Assembly: GCA_963835065.1 (NCBI GenBank)
Contig: CAWIEK010000046.1
Span: 96,001 to 160,000, forward strand
Length of the DNA: 64,000 nt
Origin: an uncultured Chthonomonadaceae bacterium
GTDB taxonomy: Bacteria; Armatimonadota; Chthonomonadetes; Chthonomonadales; Chthonomonadaceae
Direction of reading: 5' to 3'
Below the pieces are notes generated by a model that saw only the letters and a list, made by a program, of their open reading frames with translations, was not told the DNA's origin and did not search any database. The position numbers and the translations under genes were made by a program. Shown piece by piece: positions 28,958 to 35,321 of the stretch (its first letter is position 1; each line of letters begins with the position of its first letter).

Positions 28958-29272
28958 ATGCCGGTAATTAGAATTCATCCGACAGTTCCGCAGGCCCCGC
29001 CGGAGTTGGTTGCCGCGCTTGCAGAAGAATTGCGGCGCAATGCGCCCGAAGGGCCGGAAGACGCGCCACGTATAGTTGAGGAAGAAGCCGTGCGCGGCAA
29101 CTACTTCGCGGTTAAAGTAATCTGGGATGCCTGGAAAGGTCTCGCCCCGGAACTGCGCAGTCGCGCGATTATGGACGCCTACAATCAAGTCAGGCCGGAA
29201 GATGTGTCCCATATCAGTCTGGCAATCGGCTTTACCCATGCGGACGCGCAACGCTTCAATCTCACTTCTTGA
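28958..29272 (+). CDS. Hypothetical protein, weakly BolA-like
   Basis: RBS ggag; VIWDAWKGL..E.RSRAIMDAY pattern. Confidence 0.6.
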   Translation: MPVIRIHPTVPQAPPELVAALAEELRRNAPEGPEDAPRIVEEEAVRGNYFAVKVIWDAWKGLAPELRSRAIMDAYNQVRPEDVSHISLAIGFTHADAQRFNLTS

Positions 29273-29284
29273 TGCAAAGGCAGC

Positions 29285-29920
29285 ATGATGTCTTATCCTG
29301 AACCAGCCTGCGACCAATCTGCGCCTTTCCTGATGTGGGTAGAAGACGTGTATTTCATCAACAGGAAATGGCACAACGATCACGGGGTATGTTGAGAGGG
29401 GATCGTTCAGGATCAATACGATCAATGTGGAAGTGGTAGGGCTATGATCTGTATGCGCCTTGCCCACGTCCCACAAATGTTACGATGATGGAACAAGGCA
29501 CAAGGTAGCAAAAGACGATAGTTTGTGGAGAACAGGCAGGCATTTTGCTTCGCGCTTGGATAGACGTATTGATGTACAGTTAGGGCAGGTTGTATTGCTG
29601 CGCCGGGCAGTATTCGGGCAGTATAAAGCGATTCCACGGCTAATATACAATGTGCCTGAGCGAAGCAGAAGGCAGTGAAAACATTCGGCCTTTATCGCAG
29701 ATGAAGAAGTCGAATTCTTGTTTTGTAATGTATTATGTTCCGGGAACTTATACGTTCCTTGTCATGAGGTTTGATCTGGCAGCATCCGCGAACAGAGTTA
29801 ACACTGAATTGTACACTTCCTCATCCCATCGCAATGGAAGAAGGACAAGAGTTTACCGTTTACTGCGGCGGGAAAGTTGTTGGAGCAGGTAAGGTTGTCG
29901 AACTGATAATGAAATTTTGA
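29285..29920 (+). pseudogene. Diverged EF-Tu domain II-III homolog lacking the G domain, frameshifted
   Basis: Across frames: SYPEP..PFLMWVEDVYFI, GTTITGYVERG, VEVVGL, GEQAGILLR, DVQLGQV, LSEAEG, PIAMEEGQEF..GGKVVGAGKV. Confidence 0.78.
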
Positions 29921-29982: not shown

Positions 29983-30420
29983 ATGGAACCATTGGCAGCA
30001 ACGATGGACAATGGCGCAGGAAGCGTCCGAAACGGCGCGGCTGGCGCAAGGGGATGCGGCTATCGCTCGGCAGCAAGTCGCGTACTATACGCGGCGTATC
30101 AAGCGGCAACGGCGATTATTGCTGTATCGTAAAGCTAGAAACCGCCCGTAACAGCGCGAAGCCTGGAGCCACGCCGAAACACCCGCCATTTCTTGCCACA
30201 AACACCTGCATTCGGTTATTACGTTCAGCGGAGTAAAGCGCTATGACATTGGCGTAAACGGCTGAGGGAACTGTACAAATAACGGGTTACTGCGGATTAT
30301 GTTGGCAGTGTCGATGTGACACCCCTGGCGGCTGCAAACGCCATCAAAGATATGCGCTATATGCTCAACACGCGAAGTTATTTTGCGAAAGAGCAATTCT
30401 TATGGCTCTGCCGAAATGGA
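29983..30420 (+). pseudogene. Degraded HEPN gene, paralog of 31223..31624
   Basis: Fragments WQQ, AAYQAA, EAWSHAETP, LRELYK, VTADY. Confidence 0.72.
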
Positions 30421-30426
30421 ACAGAA

Positions 30427-30700
30427 ATGGCGGAGCAAGATAATATGGCGGCGGATTGGCTCAAACAAGTTGCCGCTGACGTGAATTGCACCCAATTGTT
30501 ATGTGCCACCTACACTGCGCGCTGATAGAGATGGCTGTACATACACGGTACAACTGCAGTAATGCGGGTGACGCTTCGGAAAGAACCAATGGTGCTGGAG
30601 CCTGGAAGATCTTGGAGTCTCACGAACGCAAAGCCACGCTGGCATTTGATGATAATGCCCGCTGGCGCGTAGCAAAAAGCGATTGTTCAAAGCCTTCGCA
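30427..30700 (+). pseudogene. Degraded copy of the small HEPN-partner protein
   Basis: MAEQDNMAADWLKQVA... GDASER... LED... KPRWHLMIMP, similar to 31627, 31887 and 32346. Confidence 0.5.
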
Positions 30701-30723
30701 ATGCCGAACTGATTACTAAATTT

Positions 30724-30779
30724 TGAGGTATAATAGCAAGCCGGTCTGCGGACAACGGATGCCCGACCGGTTTTTTCTT
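30724..30779 (+). promoter_or_regulatory. Putative rpsJ promoter (-10 TATAAT) followed by a leader hairpin and U-tract
   Basis: tgaggTATAAT at 30729-30734; ccggtc...gaccgg tttttt. Confidence 0.5.
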
Positions 30780-30782
30780 GCA

Positions 30783-30872
30783 TCGGTGTTCGGTGTTCGG
30801 TATTGGGTATTCGGAAAGATACGCGCAATCAATCTGAACACCGAACACCGAACACCGAACACCGAACACCGA
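30783..30872. repeat. Heptamer palindrome (TCGGTGT)n / (ACACCGA)n upstream of rpsJ
   Basis: Directly visible inverted tandem arms. Confidence 0.85.
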
Positions 30873-30889: not shown

Positions 30890-31210
30890 ATGCCACCCCT
30901 CGGACGACAGGACAAGGTTCGCATTCGCTTGCGCGCCTTTGACCACCGCATCCTGGATCAGTCGGCAGAAAAGATCGTGGATACCGCCAAGCGCACGGGA
31001 GCGCGCGTGGCCGGACCCGTTCTCCTGCCAACCGACAAGGTGATTATCTGCGTGAACCGCAGCACGACCATTGACAAAGAAAGCATGGAGCATTTCGAGC
31101 AGCGGACGCACAAGCGCCTGATTGACATTCTCGAACCCGGCCCCAAAACCATTGACGCGCTGATGCGCCTCGACCTGCCCAGCGGCGTTGACATTGAAAT
31201 CAAGCTGTAA
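30890..31210 (+). CDS. rpsJ: 30S ribosomal protein S10
   Basis: [36 protein letters not shown]. Confidence 0.97.
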
Positions 31211-31222
31211 GGCAAAATACGC

Positions 31223-31624
31223 ATGGAACTCTGGCAGCAATGGTTTGCAATGGCGATTGAATCCAATAATGCGGCAGAAAATGCGCAAAGCGCCCAACAT
31301 TGGCGTTCCAGCGTAAGCCGGTACTATTATTCAGCGTATCAGGCTGTTTCGGCTGTGTTGATTTATCGCGGACTGACGCCGCCACCAGAGGAAGAAGCCT
31401 GGGGACATGCTTCCACGCCGGACATGCTTGTGGAGCATTTCGGAACCTACATTCGCAGCAAGGATGTCAGGCAACGCTACGCAAATCAACTGCGGGAGTT
31501 GTACGCCTGGCGGATCAAAGCGGATTATCGTGGAAACGAGCAACTCCGAGCAAGCATCGGCGTTGTTCGTAAAAATGCCAACAGGTTGGTAGAAATGGCA
31601 GAGGGCATACTGCCGGAGGTATAG
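31223..31624 (+). CDS. HEPN domain protein (SRxYYxAY...R..ADY type)
   Basis: [26 protein letters not shown]. Confidence 0.82.
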
Positions 31625-31626
31625 CG

Positions 31627-31866
31627 ATGTACGAAGATATTCGGAATTGGCTATGCACAGAAGCGCAACAACGCAACATCCAGGCTGTTTTTCACATGGA
31701 TCGCGTTGAAACGCACAACGGTTGGATTAAGTTGCCTGTTCGCATTGAGGGCGAGGATTTAGACACCGGTGATCGCGTAGAAATAATGTCGGAATTGGAA
31801 GACTCTTGGAATGACCGGGAGCCAGCGCCTGAACCTCGACTCCATTTGTCACTGACGAAGAGGTAA
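31627..31866 (+). CDS. Small acidic HEPN-partner protein, copy 1
   Basis: Starts 2 nt after the HEPN stop with RBS ggagg; motif LEDSWND.EP. Confidence 0.75.
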   Translation: MYEDIRNWLCTEAQQRNIQAVFHMDRVETHNGWIKLPVRIEGEDLDTGDRVEIMSELEDSWNDREPAPEPRLHLSLTKR

Positions 31867-31886
31867 CAAATAGAACTTGTTGCTTA

Positions 31887-32192
31887 ATGGAAGTTGCCTT
31901 GGCTGATTTGTTGGAGAAACCAATTGGTTTGGATTTCGAAGCGTTTCATGCCTGGCTGCAGCAAGAGGCAAAGACGCGAAACATTCAGGCTTATTTCGCT
32001 ATTCGCTCGGCGAAGATGCTTGAGGATGGCTACCTTAAATTGCCGACTTACATCGGCAATCCGGGGACTGCCTATGAACAGGTGGTTTTGATGGGAGACC
32101 TCGAAGACGCGTGGAACGATCAGGAACCAAAGCCTGAGTTTAAGTTGCATCTCTACCCGATGGGCAAGCCCCACGAGTGGAGCGGCGAGTAG
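31887..32192 (+). CDS. Small HEPN-partner protein, copy 2
   Basis: WLQQEA..RNIQA...GYLKLP...LEDAWNDQEPKP. Confidence 0.72.
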   Translation: MEVALADLLEKPIGLDFEAFHAWLQQEAKTRNIQAYFAIRSAKMLEDGYLKLPTYIGNPGTAYEQVVLMGDLEDAWNDQEPKPEFKLHLYPMGKPHEWSGE

Positions 32193-32236
32193 AACGACAC
32201 AAGTGTGCCTGTAACCACCGCGTCTTGAAGCAGTTG

Positions 32237-32345
32237 GCGGCATTGACATCGAAATCAAGCTGTAGGCGAAATCCGCATGGCATCGTGGCAGCAATGGCTG
32301 AATATGGCGATTAAGTCGCAGATATTCTGCCTCAAGGGTAAAATC
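32237..32345 (+). pseudogene. Diverged duplicate of rpsJ 3' end followed by an internally deleted HEPN remnant
   Basis: ggcattgacatcgaaatcaagctgtag (GIDIEIKL*), then MASWQQWLNMAIKSQ joined to ILPQG*. Confidence 0.8.
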
Positions 32346-32585
32346 ATGTACGAAGATATACAGAACTGGTTTTGCACCGAAGCGCAGAAGCGGCACATCC
32401 CGGCAAAGTTCTTTATGGATGGAATTGAAGCGCATCCCGGTTTTATCCGTATTCCTGTTCGCATCGAAGATGACAGTCTGGATTATGGGGACAGGGCGGA
32501 CAGGATGCAAGATTTGGAAGACTCCTGGAATGATCAGGAGCCGAAACCAAAACTGCTGGTCATTTTGCAGCCAGCGAAACACTAA
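32346..32585 (+). CDS. Small HEPN-partner protein, copy 3
   Basis: MYEDIQNWFCTEAQKRHI...LEDSWNDQEPKP, close paralog of copy 1. Confidence 0.75.
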   Translation: MYEDIQNWFCTEAQKRHIPAKFFMDGIEAHPGFIRIPVRIEDDSLDYGDRADRMQDLEDSWNDQEPKPKLLVILQPAKH

Positions 32586-32597
32586 CGAGGAGAACTT

Positions 32598-33227
32598 ATG
32601 GCGGTCAACACAATTCTGGGCAGAAAAATCGGCATGACCCAGGTCTTCAATGACCGGGGCGAAGTAGTGCCGGTTTCCGTGATAGAAGCAGGCCCCTGCA
32701 TTGTCACGCAGCTCAAAAGTGTTGAAAAAGACGGCTACGTAGCCGTCCAGGTCGGGTTTGGCGAGATACGCCCCCGGCTTGTCAACAAACCGGAAACGGG
32801 GCACTTCACCAAAGCAGGCATCGCGCCAACGCGACACCTGCGCGAAATCCGCACCGACGACACAAGCGCGTACAAATTGGGCGATGCCATTAAATGTGAC
32901 ATCTTCGCGCCCAACCAGCGCGTCAAGGTGACGGGTATATCCAAAGGCAAAGGTTTTGCCGGCGTCGTTAAGCGCTACCACTTTCATGGCGGCGATATGA
33001 CGCACGGCTCCATGATCCACCGCAAGCCGCAGTCCAGCGGCGCGACCGATGCGGCCCGCACGTTCAAGGGAACCAAAAAACCCGGACAAATGGGCAACAA
33101 GCAGGTGTCGGTGCGCGGACTGCGCATTGTGCGCGTGGACCCGGAACAAAATTTACTGCTGATCGAGGGCGCTATTCCCGGCTCCGACGGCGGGCTTGTG
33201 ACCATTCAGCGCCTGGGGCGACGGTAG
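32598..33227 (+). CDS. rplC: 50S ribosomal protein L3
   Basis: GRKIGMTQVF, SKGKGFAGVVKR, PGQMG. Confidence 0.98.
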   Translation: MAVNTILGRKIGMTQVFNDRGEVVPVSVIEAGPCIVTQLKSVEKDGYVAVQVGFGEIRPRLVNKPETGHFTKAGIAPTRHLREIRTDDTSAYKLGDAIKCDIFAPNQRVKVTGISKGKGFAGVVKRYHFHGGDMTHGSMIHRKPQSSGATDAARTFKGTKKPGQMGNKQVSVRGLRIVRVDPEQNLLLIEGAIPGSDGGLVTIQRLGRR

Positions 33228-34342: not shown

Positions 34343-35204
34343 ATGCCGATTCGACATTATAAACCCAATACGCCGGGAACCCGCTTCCGCTCCGTTGCCA
34401 CGCATACGGAACTGACGAAGCAGGAAGGCAAAAACCAGCCGGTTCGCCCGCATAAGCCCCTGCTGGAACCCATCAAAAAGAGCGGCGGACGTAACAACAA
34501 AGGCCGCATCACCAGCCGGTTCCGGGGCGGCGGCAACAAGCGCATGTACCGGATCATTGACTTCAAGCGCAACAAGTACGACATGCCCGCAACCGTGCGA
34601 ACCATCGAGTACGATCCCAACCGGACGTGCCGCATCTCCCTGGTGGAATACGCGGACGGCGAAAAGCGCTACATCCTGACTCCCATCGGCATGAAAGTCG
34701 GCGATACGATTATCTGCCAGCGAAACGGCGGATATTCGGCCCGGCAACAGCCTGCCCCTGTACGCCATTCCTGTCGGCACAGTCATCCACAACGTGGAAC
34801 TGCACCTGGGCAAGGGCGGGCAGCTTGTTCGCTCTGCGGGCGTCGGCGCGCAGTTGATGGGCAAGGGCAGCGGCAGCAAGTTCGGACAGGTGCGCCTGCC
34901 TTCGGGCGAAACGCGCCTGATTCTGCTGACGTGCCATGCCACCATCGGACAGGTCGGCAACCCCGAACACGAGAACATCTCGCTCGGCAAAGCGGGCGCG
35001 ACGCGCTGGCGCGGACGCCGGGGCCATGTGCGCGGTATCGCCATGACGCCACGCGATCACCCGCACGGCGGCGGCGAAGCGCAAAGCCCCATCGGACGCA
35101 AAAAAGGTCCGGCTTCGCCCTGGGGCAAACCCGCCATTGGCGCCAAGACCCGCCGCAACAAGGCGACGGACAAGTTCATTATCCGCAGAAGGAACAGCAA
35201 GTAA
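34343..35204 (+). CDS. rplB: 50S ribosomal protein L2 (apparent frameshift near 34715)
   Basis: [16 protein letters not shown]; second frame [16 protein letters not shown]. Confidence 0.95.
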
Positions 35205-35308
35205 GGGAACAGGGAACAGGGAACAGGGAACAGTAGATTTCCTTCTTCCTCAACCTATCAGAAGAATACAGGGATTTACTGTTCCCTGTTCCCTGTTCCC
35301 TGTTCCCT
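35204..35308. repeat. Heptamer palindrome (AGGGAAC)4 - spacer - (GTTCCCT)4
   Basis: Between rplB and rpsS. Confidence 0.92.
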
Positions 35309-35321
35309 TCGGAGATACTCG

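What the first reader, a model, noticed from the sequence alone, without database searches (positions are those of the whole stretch)
32237..32280. Diverged duplicate of the rpsJ 3' end marks an integration or recombination site
Seen: 31182-31226 (gcggcgttgacattgaaatcaagctgtaaggcaaaatacgcatgg) recurs at 32237-32280 with synonymous or conservative changes (GVDIEIKL to GIDIEIKL), and both copies are followed by a HEPN start. Inference: cassettes enter at the rpsJ 3' end and regenerate the gene, like an att site, or arrive by recombination from a relative. No integrase is visible in the window.
Basis: partly seen in the sequence, partly recalled or inferred. Interest (0 to 1): 0.7.

Follow-up and report, generated by a model that had tools for sequence, protein, structure and literature searches.

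The report
Stacked HEPN cassettes inside ribosomal operon
The repeat is a real, decayed second copy of the ribosomal gene rpsJ that separates different versions of a small two-gene cassette (a predicted toxin and its likely antidote) stacked inside an essential operon, likely brought together by recombination with a relative's DNA rather than by an integrase.

Summary
The repeat is real (40 of 45 columns; E 5e-14) but is only part of a larger scar. 32203-32265 is an rpsJ pseudogene with a 217-nt internal deletion. It is followed by a HEPN stub and a second copy (X2) of the small gene X1 that follows the intact HEPN. A third paralog, Y, lies between.

HEPN-X is a patchy cassette sitting between rpsJ and rplC in 12 of 42 family genomes, and at ftsA|ftsZ, iscS|iscU and before mnmG elsewhere. 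X1 and X2 are saturated at silent sites (pS 0.77), while the rpsJ remnant has decayed only about 0.2. Public contigs show relatives without the downstream unit, and one with it. An independent genome (G247) has the same scar at ftsA, with a foreign allele upstream.

Best reading: alleles from different lineages were stacked by integrase-free recombination anchored in the conserved neighbour gene. It is not an att site: only 1 of 17 cassette-bearing rpsJ intervals has the duplicate, and the contig has no integrase match. Toxin-antitoxin function is inferred, not tested. This scan noted similar rpsJ-rplC slots in two other genomes (unchecked notes).

The parts
30890..31210 (+). rpsJ (S10), intact, the only copy found in the genome
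   Evidence: Pfam PF00338 E 1.4e-32; single tblastn hit
31223..31624 (+). HEPN1, intact 133-aa HEPN protein (unit 1), predicted toxin
   Evidence: PF05168 E 1.7e-8, above cut-off; invariant H62, R97, Y102 in 34 relatives
31627..31866 (+). X1, 79-aa partner gene of no library family, likely cognate antitoxin
   Evidence: No Pfam, PADLOC or NCBIfam match; model pLDDT 92.7; best structural match a CDF C-terminal domain, Z 9.0
31867..31883 (+). Stub resembling the rplC ribosome-binding site and start, i.e. the likely right end of unit 1; may instead be a HEPN C-terminal scrap
   Evidence: 12 of 17 nt match 32586-32602 in register after the X stops, p 2e-4; its first codons also resemble the scrap before Y in G002
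31887..32192 (+). Y, orphan X-family gene (unit 2) whose HEPN is lost here
   Evidence: 43% to X1; 84% to the G002 gene that directly precedes rplC; dN 0.08, dS 0.43
32193..32202 (+). Junction: first part of the Y-rplC spacer joined to rpsJ-derived DNA; relatives join 32200 straight to 32585
   Evidence: G002; contigs of runs X1 and X4 skip 384 nt at 32200/32585
32203..32236 (+). rpsJ remnant, 5' piece (codons 15-25), decayed
   Evidence: 25 of 34 nt; 0 of 5000 shuffles
32277..32341 (+). HEPN2 stub: 14 N-terminal codons fused to about 7 C-terminal codons
   Evidence: 64% to HEPN1 residues 1-14; C-terminal piece read by eye from the sequence; a relative's contig runs on in register without this deletion
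32346..32585 (+). X2, intact orphan X-family gene (unit 3)
   Evidence: 58% aa to X1; pS 0.77, pN 0.27; another allele differs at 19 listed codons, 15 silent
32598..33227 (+). rplC (L3), intact
   Evidence: PF00297 E 6e-14
29288..29920 (+). Broken EF-Tu domain 2-3-like gene; its last 25 nt recur at 30702-30726
   Evidence: G002 copy matches PF03143 and PF03144; repeat 21 of 25, 0 of 2000 shuffles
29983..30670 (+). Fourth, broken HEPN-X cassette upstream of rpsJ, between the two copies of the EF-Tu-like gene end
   Evidence: tblastn and HMM pieces; its X groups with the G017 rpsJ-site allele
30702..30726 (+). Second copy of the EF-Tu-like gene's 3' end, just before a TATAAT hexamer upstream of rpsJ
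   Evidence: (D17); also in G002

Best explanation
The second rpsJ end belongs to a decayed, internally deleted rpsJ copy, likely left when two different alleles of the rpsJ-HEPN-X-rplC interval from different lineages were joined in tandem by recombination that used the conserved ribosomal gene as the homologous anchor and a short non-homologous join at the other end, probably without an integrase. Shown: the anatomy rpsJ-HEPN1-X1-Y-[rpsJ remnant]-HEPN2 stub-X2-rplC; patchy, fast-diverging HEPN-X alleles at this junction across the family; relatives that carry the units separately. Inferred: a donor fragment from about rpsJ codon 9-15 to just before rplC was trimmed, circularised and integrated by one crossover in rpsJ, or entered as a linear piece with one homologous end. 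The operon stays whole because one full rpsJ and one full rplC survive. The spare rpsJ and the older HEPN genes then decay by deletion, while X genes stay under purifying selection. Inferred and untested: HEPN is an RNase-type toxin and X its allele-specific antitoxin, so orphan X genes are kept as immunity.
For: (1) Clock mismatch: X1 vs X2 pS 0.77 (bootstrap 0.60-0.96), live vs remnant rpsJ pS 0.24 and pN 0.18; a simultaneous local duplication predicts pS 0.32-0.47. (2) X1 and X2 each have a closer relative elsewhere, 80% and 76%. (3) Units occur apart: G002 and run X4 have rpsJ-(HEPN)-Y-rplC; run X1 has unit 1 and Y and joins 32200 to 32585; run X3 has Y, the remnant and X2 with no cover over 31456-31878. 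(4) Horizontal exchange: the genus is a clade in the rpsJ+rplC tree (97) but monophyly of its X genes is rejected, p-AU 0.006; 7 gains or losses on 22 genomes. (5) Independent case G247: ftsA/ftsZ 93% to sister G360, but its intact X is 42% to G360's and 68% to G200's; behind a duplicated ftsA end it keeps the tail of a G360-type X. (6) HEPN broken or missing with X intact in 12 of 47 loci, the reverse in 0. (7) Precedent: one-ended homology gave 109-950 bp duplications by single crossover of recircularised DNA in 56 of 60 E. coli clones (PMC3240628, passages).
Against: X1 and X2 were sisters (95/88) in the first tree and still share a 6-member subclade, as paralogs would. The remnant is only 19 comparable codons, found because they are recognisable, so its decay may be underestimated. 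The read evidence is short metagenome contigs at depth 4-11 that are not joined across the locus. rplC shows no raised divergence from G002 that would mark a donor tract. Which unit came in is not settled for this genome. comEC was found but dprA was not, in a 92% complete genome. No carrier was found: 0 plasmid matches, 1 weak viral match.
Confidence: 0.68

Rival explanations
1. Simple local tandem duplication: one chromosome duplicated rpsJ-HEPN-X, the spare rpsJ and HEPN decayed, and X1 and X2 diverged in place.
For: Same topology as observed; X1 and X2 are each other's closest genes in the 30-row tree; HEPN starts and spacers of both copies are alike (D3); all three X matches in this genome lie at this locus.
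Against: Silent sites of X1/X2 are saturated while the remnant is about 0.2 diverged; Y, only 36-43% like either, sits between the copies; relatives carry unit 1 without unit 3 and apparently unit 3 without unit 1; in G247 the two stacked alleles trace to different lineages.
Confidence: 0.15
2. Site-specific integration at an att site in the rpsJ 3' end, by an integrase since lost or acting in trans (cis-mobilizable element with tandem accretion).
For: The best-kept part of the repeat is the last 27-30 nt of a ribosomal gene, and such elements integrate at ribosomal-gene 3' ends and accrete in tandem (PMC5704250, passages). The genome encodes 6 tyrosine and 2 serine recombinase matches on other contigs. 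The 25-nt repeat at the EF-Tu-like end is att-sized.
Against: The duplicate covered at least 279 nt, against 8-60 bp cores. 16 of 17 cassette-bearing rpsJ intervals, 13 of 14 ftsA and 8 of 8 iscS intervals have no second gene end. The targets share no gene family. There is no recombinase match on C46.
Confidence: 0.1
3. Assembly chimera of two strains' alleles.
For: The genome is a 71-contig assembly with 3.7% contamination; no listed contig piece spans the whole stretch.
Against: The remnant has a 217-nt deletion and missense decay not seen in any live rpsJ; an independent run has the Y-remnant-HEPN2 junction in one contig with 3 differences in 183 nt.
Confidence: 0.03

Closest known systems
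Sequential displacement of T6SS effector-immunity modules in Vibrio cholerae (PMC5361080; passages read)
   Same: A new toxin-partner pair enters behind a conserved anchor, the old toxin is lost and the old partner stays as an orphan downstream; proposed mechanism is homology-facilitated illegitimate recombination with no integrase.
   Different: Here the anchor is an essential housekeeping gene, the toxin is a small cytoplasmic HEPN with no secretion genes beside it, and part of the anchor gene is duplicated rather than resident DNA simply deleted.
One-ended homologous integration: HFIR and single crossover of a trimmed, recircularised fragment (PMC3240628; passages)
   Same: Gives foreign DNA flanked by a 109-950 bp duplication of the homologous gene end; the inferred duplicate here is 279 nt or more.
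   Different: Shown for a conjugated plasmid in E. coli; here the donor DNA form and route are unknown.
IME/ICE and cis-mobilizable elements at ribosomal-gene 3' ends such as rpsI, rplL, rpmE, rpmG (PMC5704250; passages)
   Same: Gene 3' end duplicated, target gene left intact, tandem accretion, toxin-antitoxin cargo in some.
   Different: No integrase or relaxase in the cassette, a much longer repeat, a repeat missing from most occupied sites, and several unrelated target genes.
HEPN-MNT toxin-antitoxin pairs, HEPN-T (PF05168) AF0298-like type (PMC3710099; passages)
   Same: PF05168 match; R kept, H of Rx4-6H replaced, and a conserved upstream H; two-gene module.
   Different: The partner matches no nucleotidyltransferase family, has no conserved acidic dyad, lies downstream of HEPN, and models as a KH-II/CDF-CTD-like domain.

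Membership tests
Integrase-mediated att-site element (IME/ICE/CIME) | Own tyrosine or serine recombinase in or beside the element | tested here: not met
   PF00589 6 matches and PF00239 2 matches in the genome, none on C46; the inserted genes are HEPN and X only
Integrase-mediated att-site element (IME/ICE/CIME) | Short 8-60 bp direct repeats at both ends | tested here: not met
   Repeat includes rpsJ codons 15-25 and 99-106, so at least 279 nt originally
Integrase-mediated att-site element (IME/ICE/CIME) | Occupied sites regularly keep the duplicated gene end | tested here: not met
   1 of 17 rpsJ, 1 of 14 ftsA, 0 of 8 iscS intervals; some rows are near-identical strains
Integrase-mediated att-site element (IME/ICE/CIME) | Excised circle and restored attB | tested here: inconclusive
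   Only assembled contigs could be laid; no circle joint among the rows shown (15 of 20 joints, 4 of 4; the one 'goes back' row is X1 aligning on X2). Forms lacking unit 3 exist, but they join at the Y-rplC spacer, not in rpsJ.
Recombination-stacked toxin-immunity array (PMC5361080 model) | One intact toxin-partner pair followed by orphan partners | tested here: met
   HEPN1-X1 intact; Y and X2 intact with HEPN lost or stubbed
Recombination-stacked toxin-immunity array (PMC5361080 model) | Array members closer to other strains' genes than to each other | tested here: met
   X1 80% to P0018, X2 76% to P0023, against 58% to each other; Y 88% to G002. These relatives could be orthologs from the same array.
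Recombination-stacked toxin-immunity array (PMC5361080 model) | Allele-specific toxicity and protection | not testable with these tools
   Needs expression tests
HEPN-MNT toxin-antitoxin | HEPN domain | tested here: met
   PF05168 35.1 bits against cut-off 22; PADLOC HEPN_IX E 5e-7
HEPN-MNT toxin-antitoxin | Rx4-6H RNase motif | tested here: not met
   R97-x4-Y102; invariant H62 fits the alternative site described for AF0298-like HEPN-T
HEPN-MNT toxin-antitoxin | Partner with the nucleotidyltransferase GS...DxD motif (motif recalled, not from a call) | tested here: not met
   No library match; conserved columns are E58, W61, P66, L74 only
HEPN-MNT toxin-antitoxin | Partner with a nucleotidyltransferase fold | tested here: inconclusive
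   Best rows are CDF C-terminal, KH-like and RimP domains, Z 9.0-7.1, rmsd 2.2-3.0 over 70-76 residues; Foldseek had no match at E 0.001

The most novel reading that the evidence does not exclude
HEPN-X is an undescribed family of integrase-free addiction cassettes that lives in the junctions of essential operons (rpsJ|rplC, ftsA|ftsZ, iscS|iscU, before mnmG). It spreads by using the neighbour gene's 3' end as a recombination anchor, so incoming alleles displace residents downstream and leave arrays of allele-specific, non-MNT antitoxins.
Probability: 0.3. Interest if true: 0.72.

Novelty: new variant of a known kind. Interest (0 to 1): 0.5.

Why it matters
It shows how small accessory genes get into, and turn over within, the most conserved operons without a recombinase of their own, and that a duplicated gene end need not mark an att site. 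It also yields a testable set: one intact HEPN and three diverged partner genes from one locus, allowing a direct test of allele-specific neutralisation by a partner family with no library match (148 clusters at 50% identity). The recombination process itself is known from laboratory work and from secretion-system arrays, which limits the surprise.

Tried and rejected
- Donor tract in rplC: its aa identity to G002 looked low, but four-fold-site divergence was not raised (1/37, 8/33, 7/40). Rejected.
- Co-conversion of flanks: the rplC 5' part has low silent divergence, but also among cassette-free genomes (0.14-0.25). Rejected as evidence.
- X1 as single query against genome contigs found no relative. 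HEPN1 found one weak Myxococcota match.
- Atlas hits for X1 were all under 0.9 and unnamed.
- Plasmids gave no match; viral contigs gave one 33-aa match at E 3e-4, not followed up.
- Rfam gave only chance microRNA rows on the repeat hairpin; the promoter scan was at chance level.
- No nucleotidyltransferase stood among the top structural rows except TUT7 at Z 5.5; this does not exclude kinship.
- A G002 self-match to its rpsJ end scored 19 (p about 0.02) but was not seen by the profile search. Not counted.
- Genome-wide scan for short 3'-end repeats: 12 of 5830 gene ends against 1, 6 and 8 in three controls. Weak enrichment only. A first version dropped rpsJ through crude gene calling.
- Literature: one search returned 0 papers; one search returned 1, unrelated by its listing; searches listed no paper on this cassette by title or abstract start. 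Only open-licence papers were searched and no supplements were read.

Full report
OBSERVATION. The repeat is real. 31182-31226 and 32237-32280 agree in 40 of 45 columns. The match runs 77 nt at 82%, E 5e-14 against the whole 8-Mb genome, and has no other copy there. It is part of a longer duplicate. 32203-32236 matches rpsJ codons 15-25 at 25 of 34 nt; 0 of 5000 shuffles reach its score of 36 and the best of 30 control windows scores 20. The two pieces are joined across a 217-nt deletion at a short shared motif, so the copy first covered at least 279 nt of rpsJ. The 5' piece has radical changes (pN 0.27), and all 23 live rpsJ ends printed have V where the remnant has I. This is a decaying pseudogene, not a conserved short core.

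ANATOMY. rpsJ (30890-31210) is followed by an intact HEPN gene (31223-31624; PF05168) and X1 (31627-31866). Then come Y (31887-32192), the rpsJ remnant (32203-32265), a HEPN stub (32277-32341), X2 (32346-32585) and rplC (32598). X1, Y and X2 are one family: X1/X2 58%, Y 36-43%. After the X1 stop, 12 of 17 nt match the rplC start region in register (p 2e-4), so unit 1 probably once led into rplC; the same letters could also be a HEPN scrap as in G002. Upstream of rpsJ a fourth, broken HEPN-X pair lies between two copies of the last 25 nt of an EF-Tu-like gene, in this genome and, without its HEPN, in G002 (0 of 2000 shuffles each).

RELATIVES. An X profile matched 12 of 42 family genomes. All 15 matches lie within 1.4 kb of rpsJ, 14 of them between rpsJ and rplC. 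Of the 23 intervals I examined, 12 hold the cassette and 11 are 9-114 nt long. Carriers and non-carriers are interleaved on the rpsJ+rplC tree, 7 changes on 22 genomes (G049 left out as partial). In the phylum sample 34 of 401 genomes matched. Outside this family the cassette follows ftsA, follows iscS, or precedes mnmG (these gene names are my recognition of the translations, not library results). A nucleotide profile of the upstream gene end found a second copy in 1 of 17 rpsJ intervals (this genome), 1 of 14 ftsA intervals (G247) and 0 of 8 iscS intervals; several metagenome rows are near-identical to each other or to listed genomes. So the cassette normally sits at the junction with no scar.

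DUPLICATION OR IMPORT. X1 and X2 differ at 0.77 of silent sites (bootstrap 0.60-0.96). The remnant differs from live rpsJ by pS 0.24 and pN 0.18 over 19 codons, and Y differs from its G002 ortholog by pS 0.33. A duplication that made remnant and X2 together predicts pS 0.32-0.47. Against my reading, X1 and X2 were sisters at 95/88 in the first tree. With wider sampling each pairs with an outside protein (80% and 76%), though both stay in one subclade and the bootstrap had not fully settled. The genus is a clade by host genes (97), yet monophyly of its rpsJ-site X genes is rejected (p-AU 0.006, 29 rows after dropping one broken row).

PUBLIC CONTIGS. No run held half of the sampled words (best 0.36), and only assembled contigs were laid, 6 of 24 listed runs. 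Run X1 has a 1109-nt contig over 31141-32200 (39 other letters, 4 gaps) that joins straight to 32585. Run X4 has a 7242-nt contig with rpsJ, 423 other letters, Y, and the same join. G002 has it too. Run X3 has one contig over 32140-32322 with 3 other letters and no gap. That contig continues in register into HEPN-like sequence, so its HEPN2 lacks the deletion for at least 204 nt, and the run has no cover over 31456-31878; a hole proves nothing by itself. Run X5 has an X2 allele with 28 differences in 244 nt; of the 20 listed, 15 of 19 changed codons are silent. Units 1 and 3 therefore appear both together and apart, and X2 is under selection.

POLARITY. G247 gives a clean second case. Its ftsA and ftsZ are 93% identical to G360 (sisters, support 100), but its intact X is 42% identical to G360's and 68% to G200's. 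Behind the duplicated ftsA end it keeps the tail of a G360-type X and the following spacer (local score 63, next best 29 of 13 genomes). There the foreign allele is upstream and the resident was pushed behind the scar and collapsed. For the window itself the direction is open. A circle integrating in rpsJ makes the Y unit the newcomer and does replace the live rpsJ end. A linear piece anchored in rplC makes unit 3 the newcomer, which fits G002 and X4 lacking it. rplC shows no donor tract.

MECHANISM. Shown: anatomy, patchy alleles, separate occurrence of units, no PF00589 or PF00239 match on contig C46 (6 and 2 elsewhere). Inferred: a fragment from a relative carrying most of rpsJ and its own HEPN-X allele recombined by homology at one end and by a short non-homologous join at the other. 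In E. coli, one-ended homology gave 109-950 bp duplications by single crossover of recircularised DNA in 56 of 60 clones, and true HFIR in 4 (PMC3240628, passages). Transformation can also trigger tandem duplications (PMC3784515, passages). comEC was found and dprA was not. Only products with a whole rpsJ and rplC survive, and the spare DNA is then deleted.

WHAT THE CASSETTE DOES. HEPN1 has invariant H62, R97 and Y102. That is not Rx4-6H, but fits the AF0298-like HEPN-T type with an upstream H (PMC3710099, passages). X has no library family, forms 148 clusters at 50% identity, and models confidently as a small alpha-beta domain whose best match is a CDF C-terminal domain, Z 9.0, rmsd 2.2 over 72 residues. 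Among 47 loci, both genes are intact in 33, HEPN is broken, partial or missing with X intact in 12, both are broken or partial in 2, and the reverse occurs in 0. Most loci were found with the X profile; among the 10 found with the HEPN profile, HEPN was broken or partial in 4 and an intact X was present in all 10. This pattern is expected of toxin and antitoxin but is not a test.

COMPARISON AND NOVELTY. It works like the effector-immunity displacement arrays of Vibrio (PMC5361080, passages) and superficially like elements that integrate at ribosomal-gene ends (PMC5704250, passages), but fails three defining tests of the latter. It is not a HEPN-MNT member by motif. Five literature searches listed nothing on this cassette; they cover open-licence papers only and no supplements were read. 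This scan noted similar rpsJ-rplC slots with other cargo in two other genomes; these are unchecked notes, one of which led me to the IME literature. Verdict: new variant of a known kind, interest 0.5. The host lineage was not named by any search.

Noticed in passing
window 29288-29920; L002:386-976: Between fusA and rpsJ lies a gene for EF-Tu domains 2-3 only, about 35% identical to the genome's EF-Tu-like gene on C63; open in G002 (197 aa), broken here, not found at this place in G001, G023 or G015.
   Followed up: partly
window 32610-32730 (rplC 5' part): Four-fold sites in rplC codons about 5-44 are strongly conserved across the family (0.05-0.25 in two windows against 0.5-0.7 further on), with or without the cassette; possibly an RNA element. 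No Rfam match.
   Followed up: partly
window 28958-29272: 104-aa gene of no Pfam family right after fusA, 91% conserved in G002 with dN 0.04 and dS 0.53.
   Followed up: no
window 30783-30872 and 35203-35309: Hairpins made of inverted 7-nt tandem repeats in intergenic DNA; the first is replaced by 29 other letters in run X4 and by a different repeat in G002.
   Followed up: no
window about 34717-34794 and about 35770: rplB and rplV read in two frames each, suggesting frameshifts or sequencing errors.
   Followed up: no
L058:2865-3816, L061, L062: Metagenome contigs with rpsJ-HEPN-X-X'-rplC, where X' has a stop and ends like the G017 allele: a second stacking case at rpsJ|rplC with no rpsJ scar.
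   Followed up: partly
G000 C48:13799-15384, C68 near 2206, C38:11677-14388, C35:34031-35259: Other gene ends in this genome repeated 0.6-2.1 kb downstream with accessory ORFs between them.
   Followed up: no
L066, L067, L069 and other ftsA|ftsZ loci: X proteins at the ftsA|ftsZ site carry a roughly 65-aa C-terminal extension absent at the rpsJ site.
   Followed up: no
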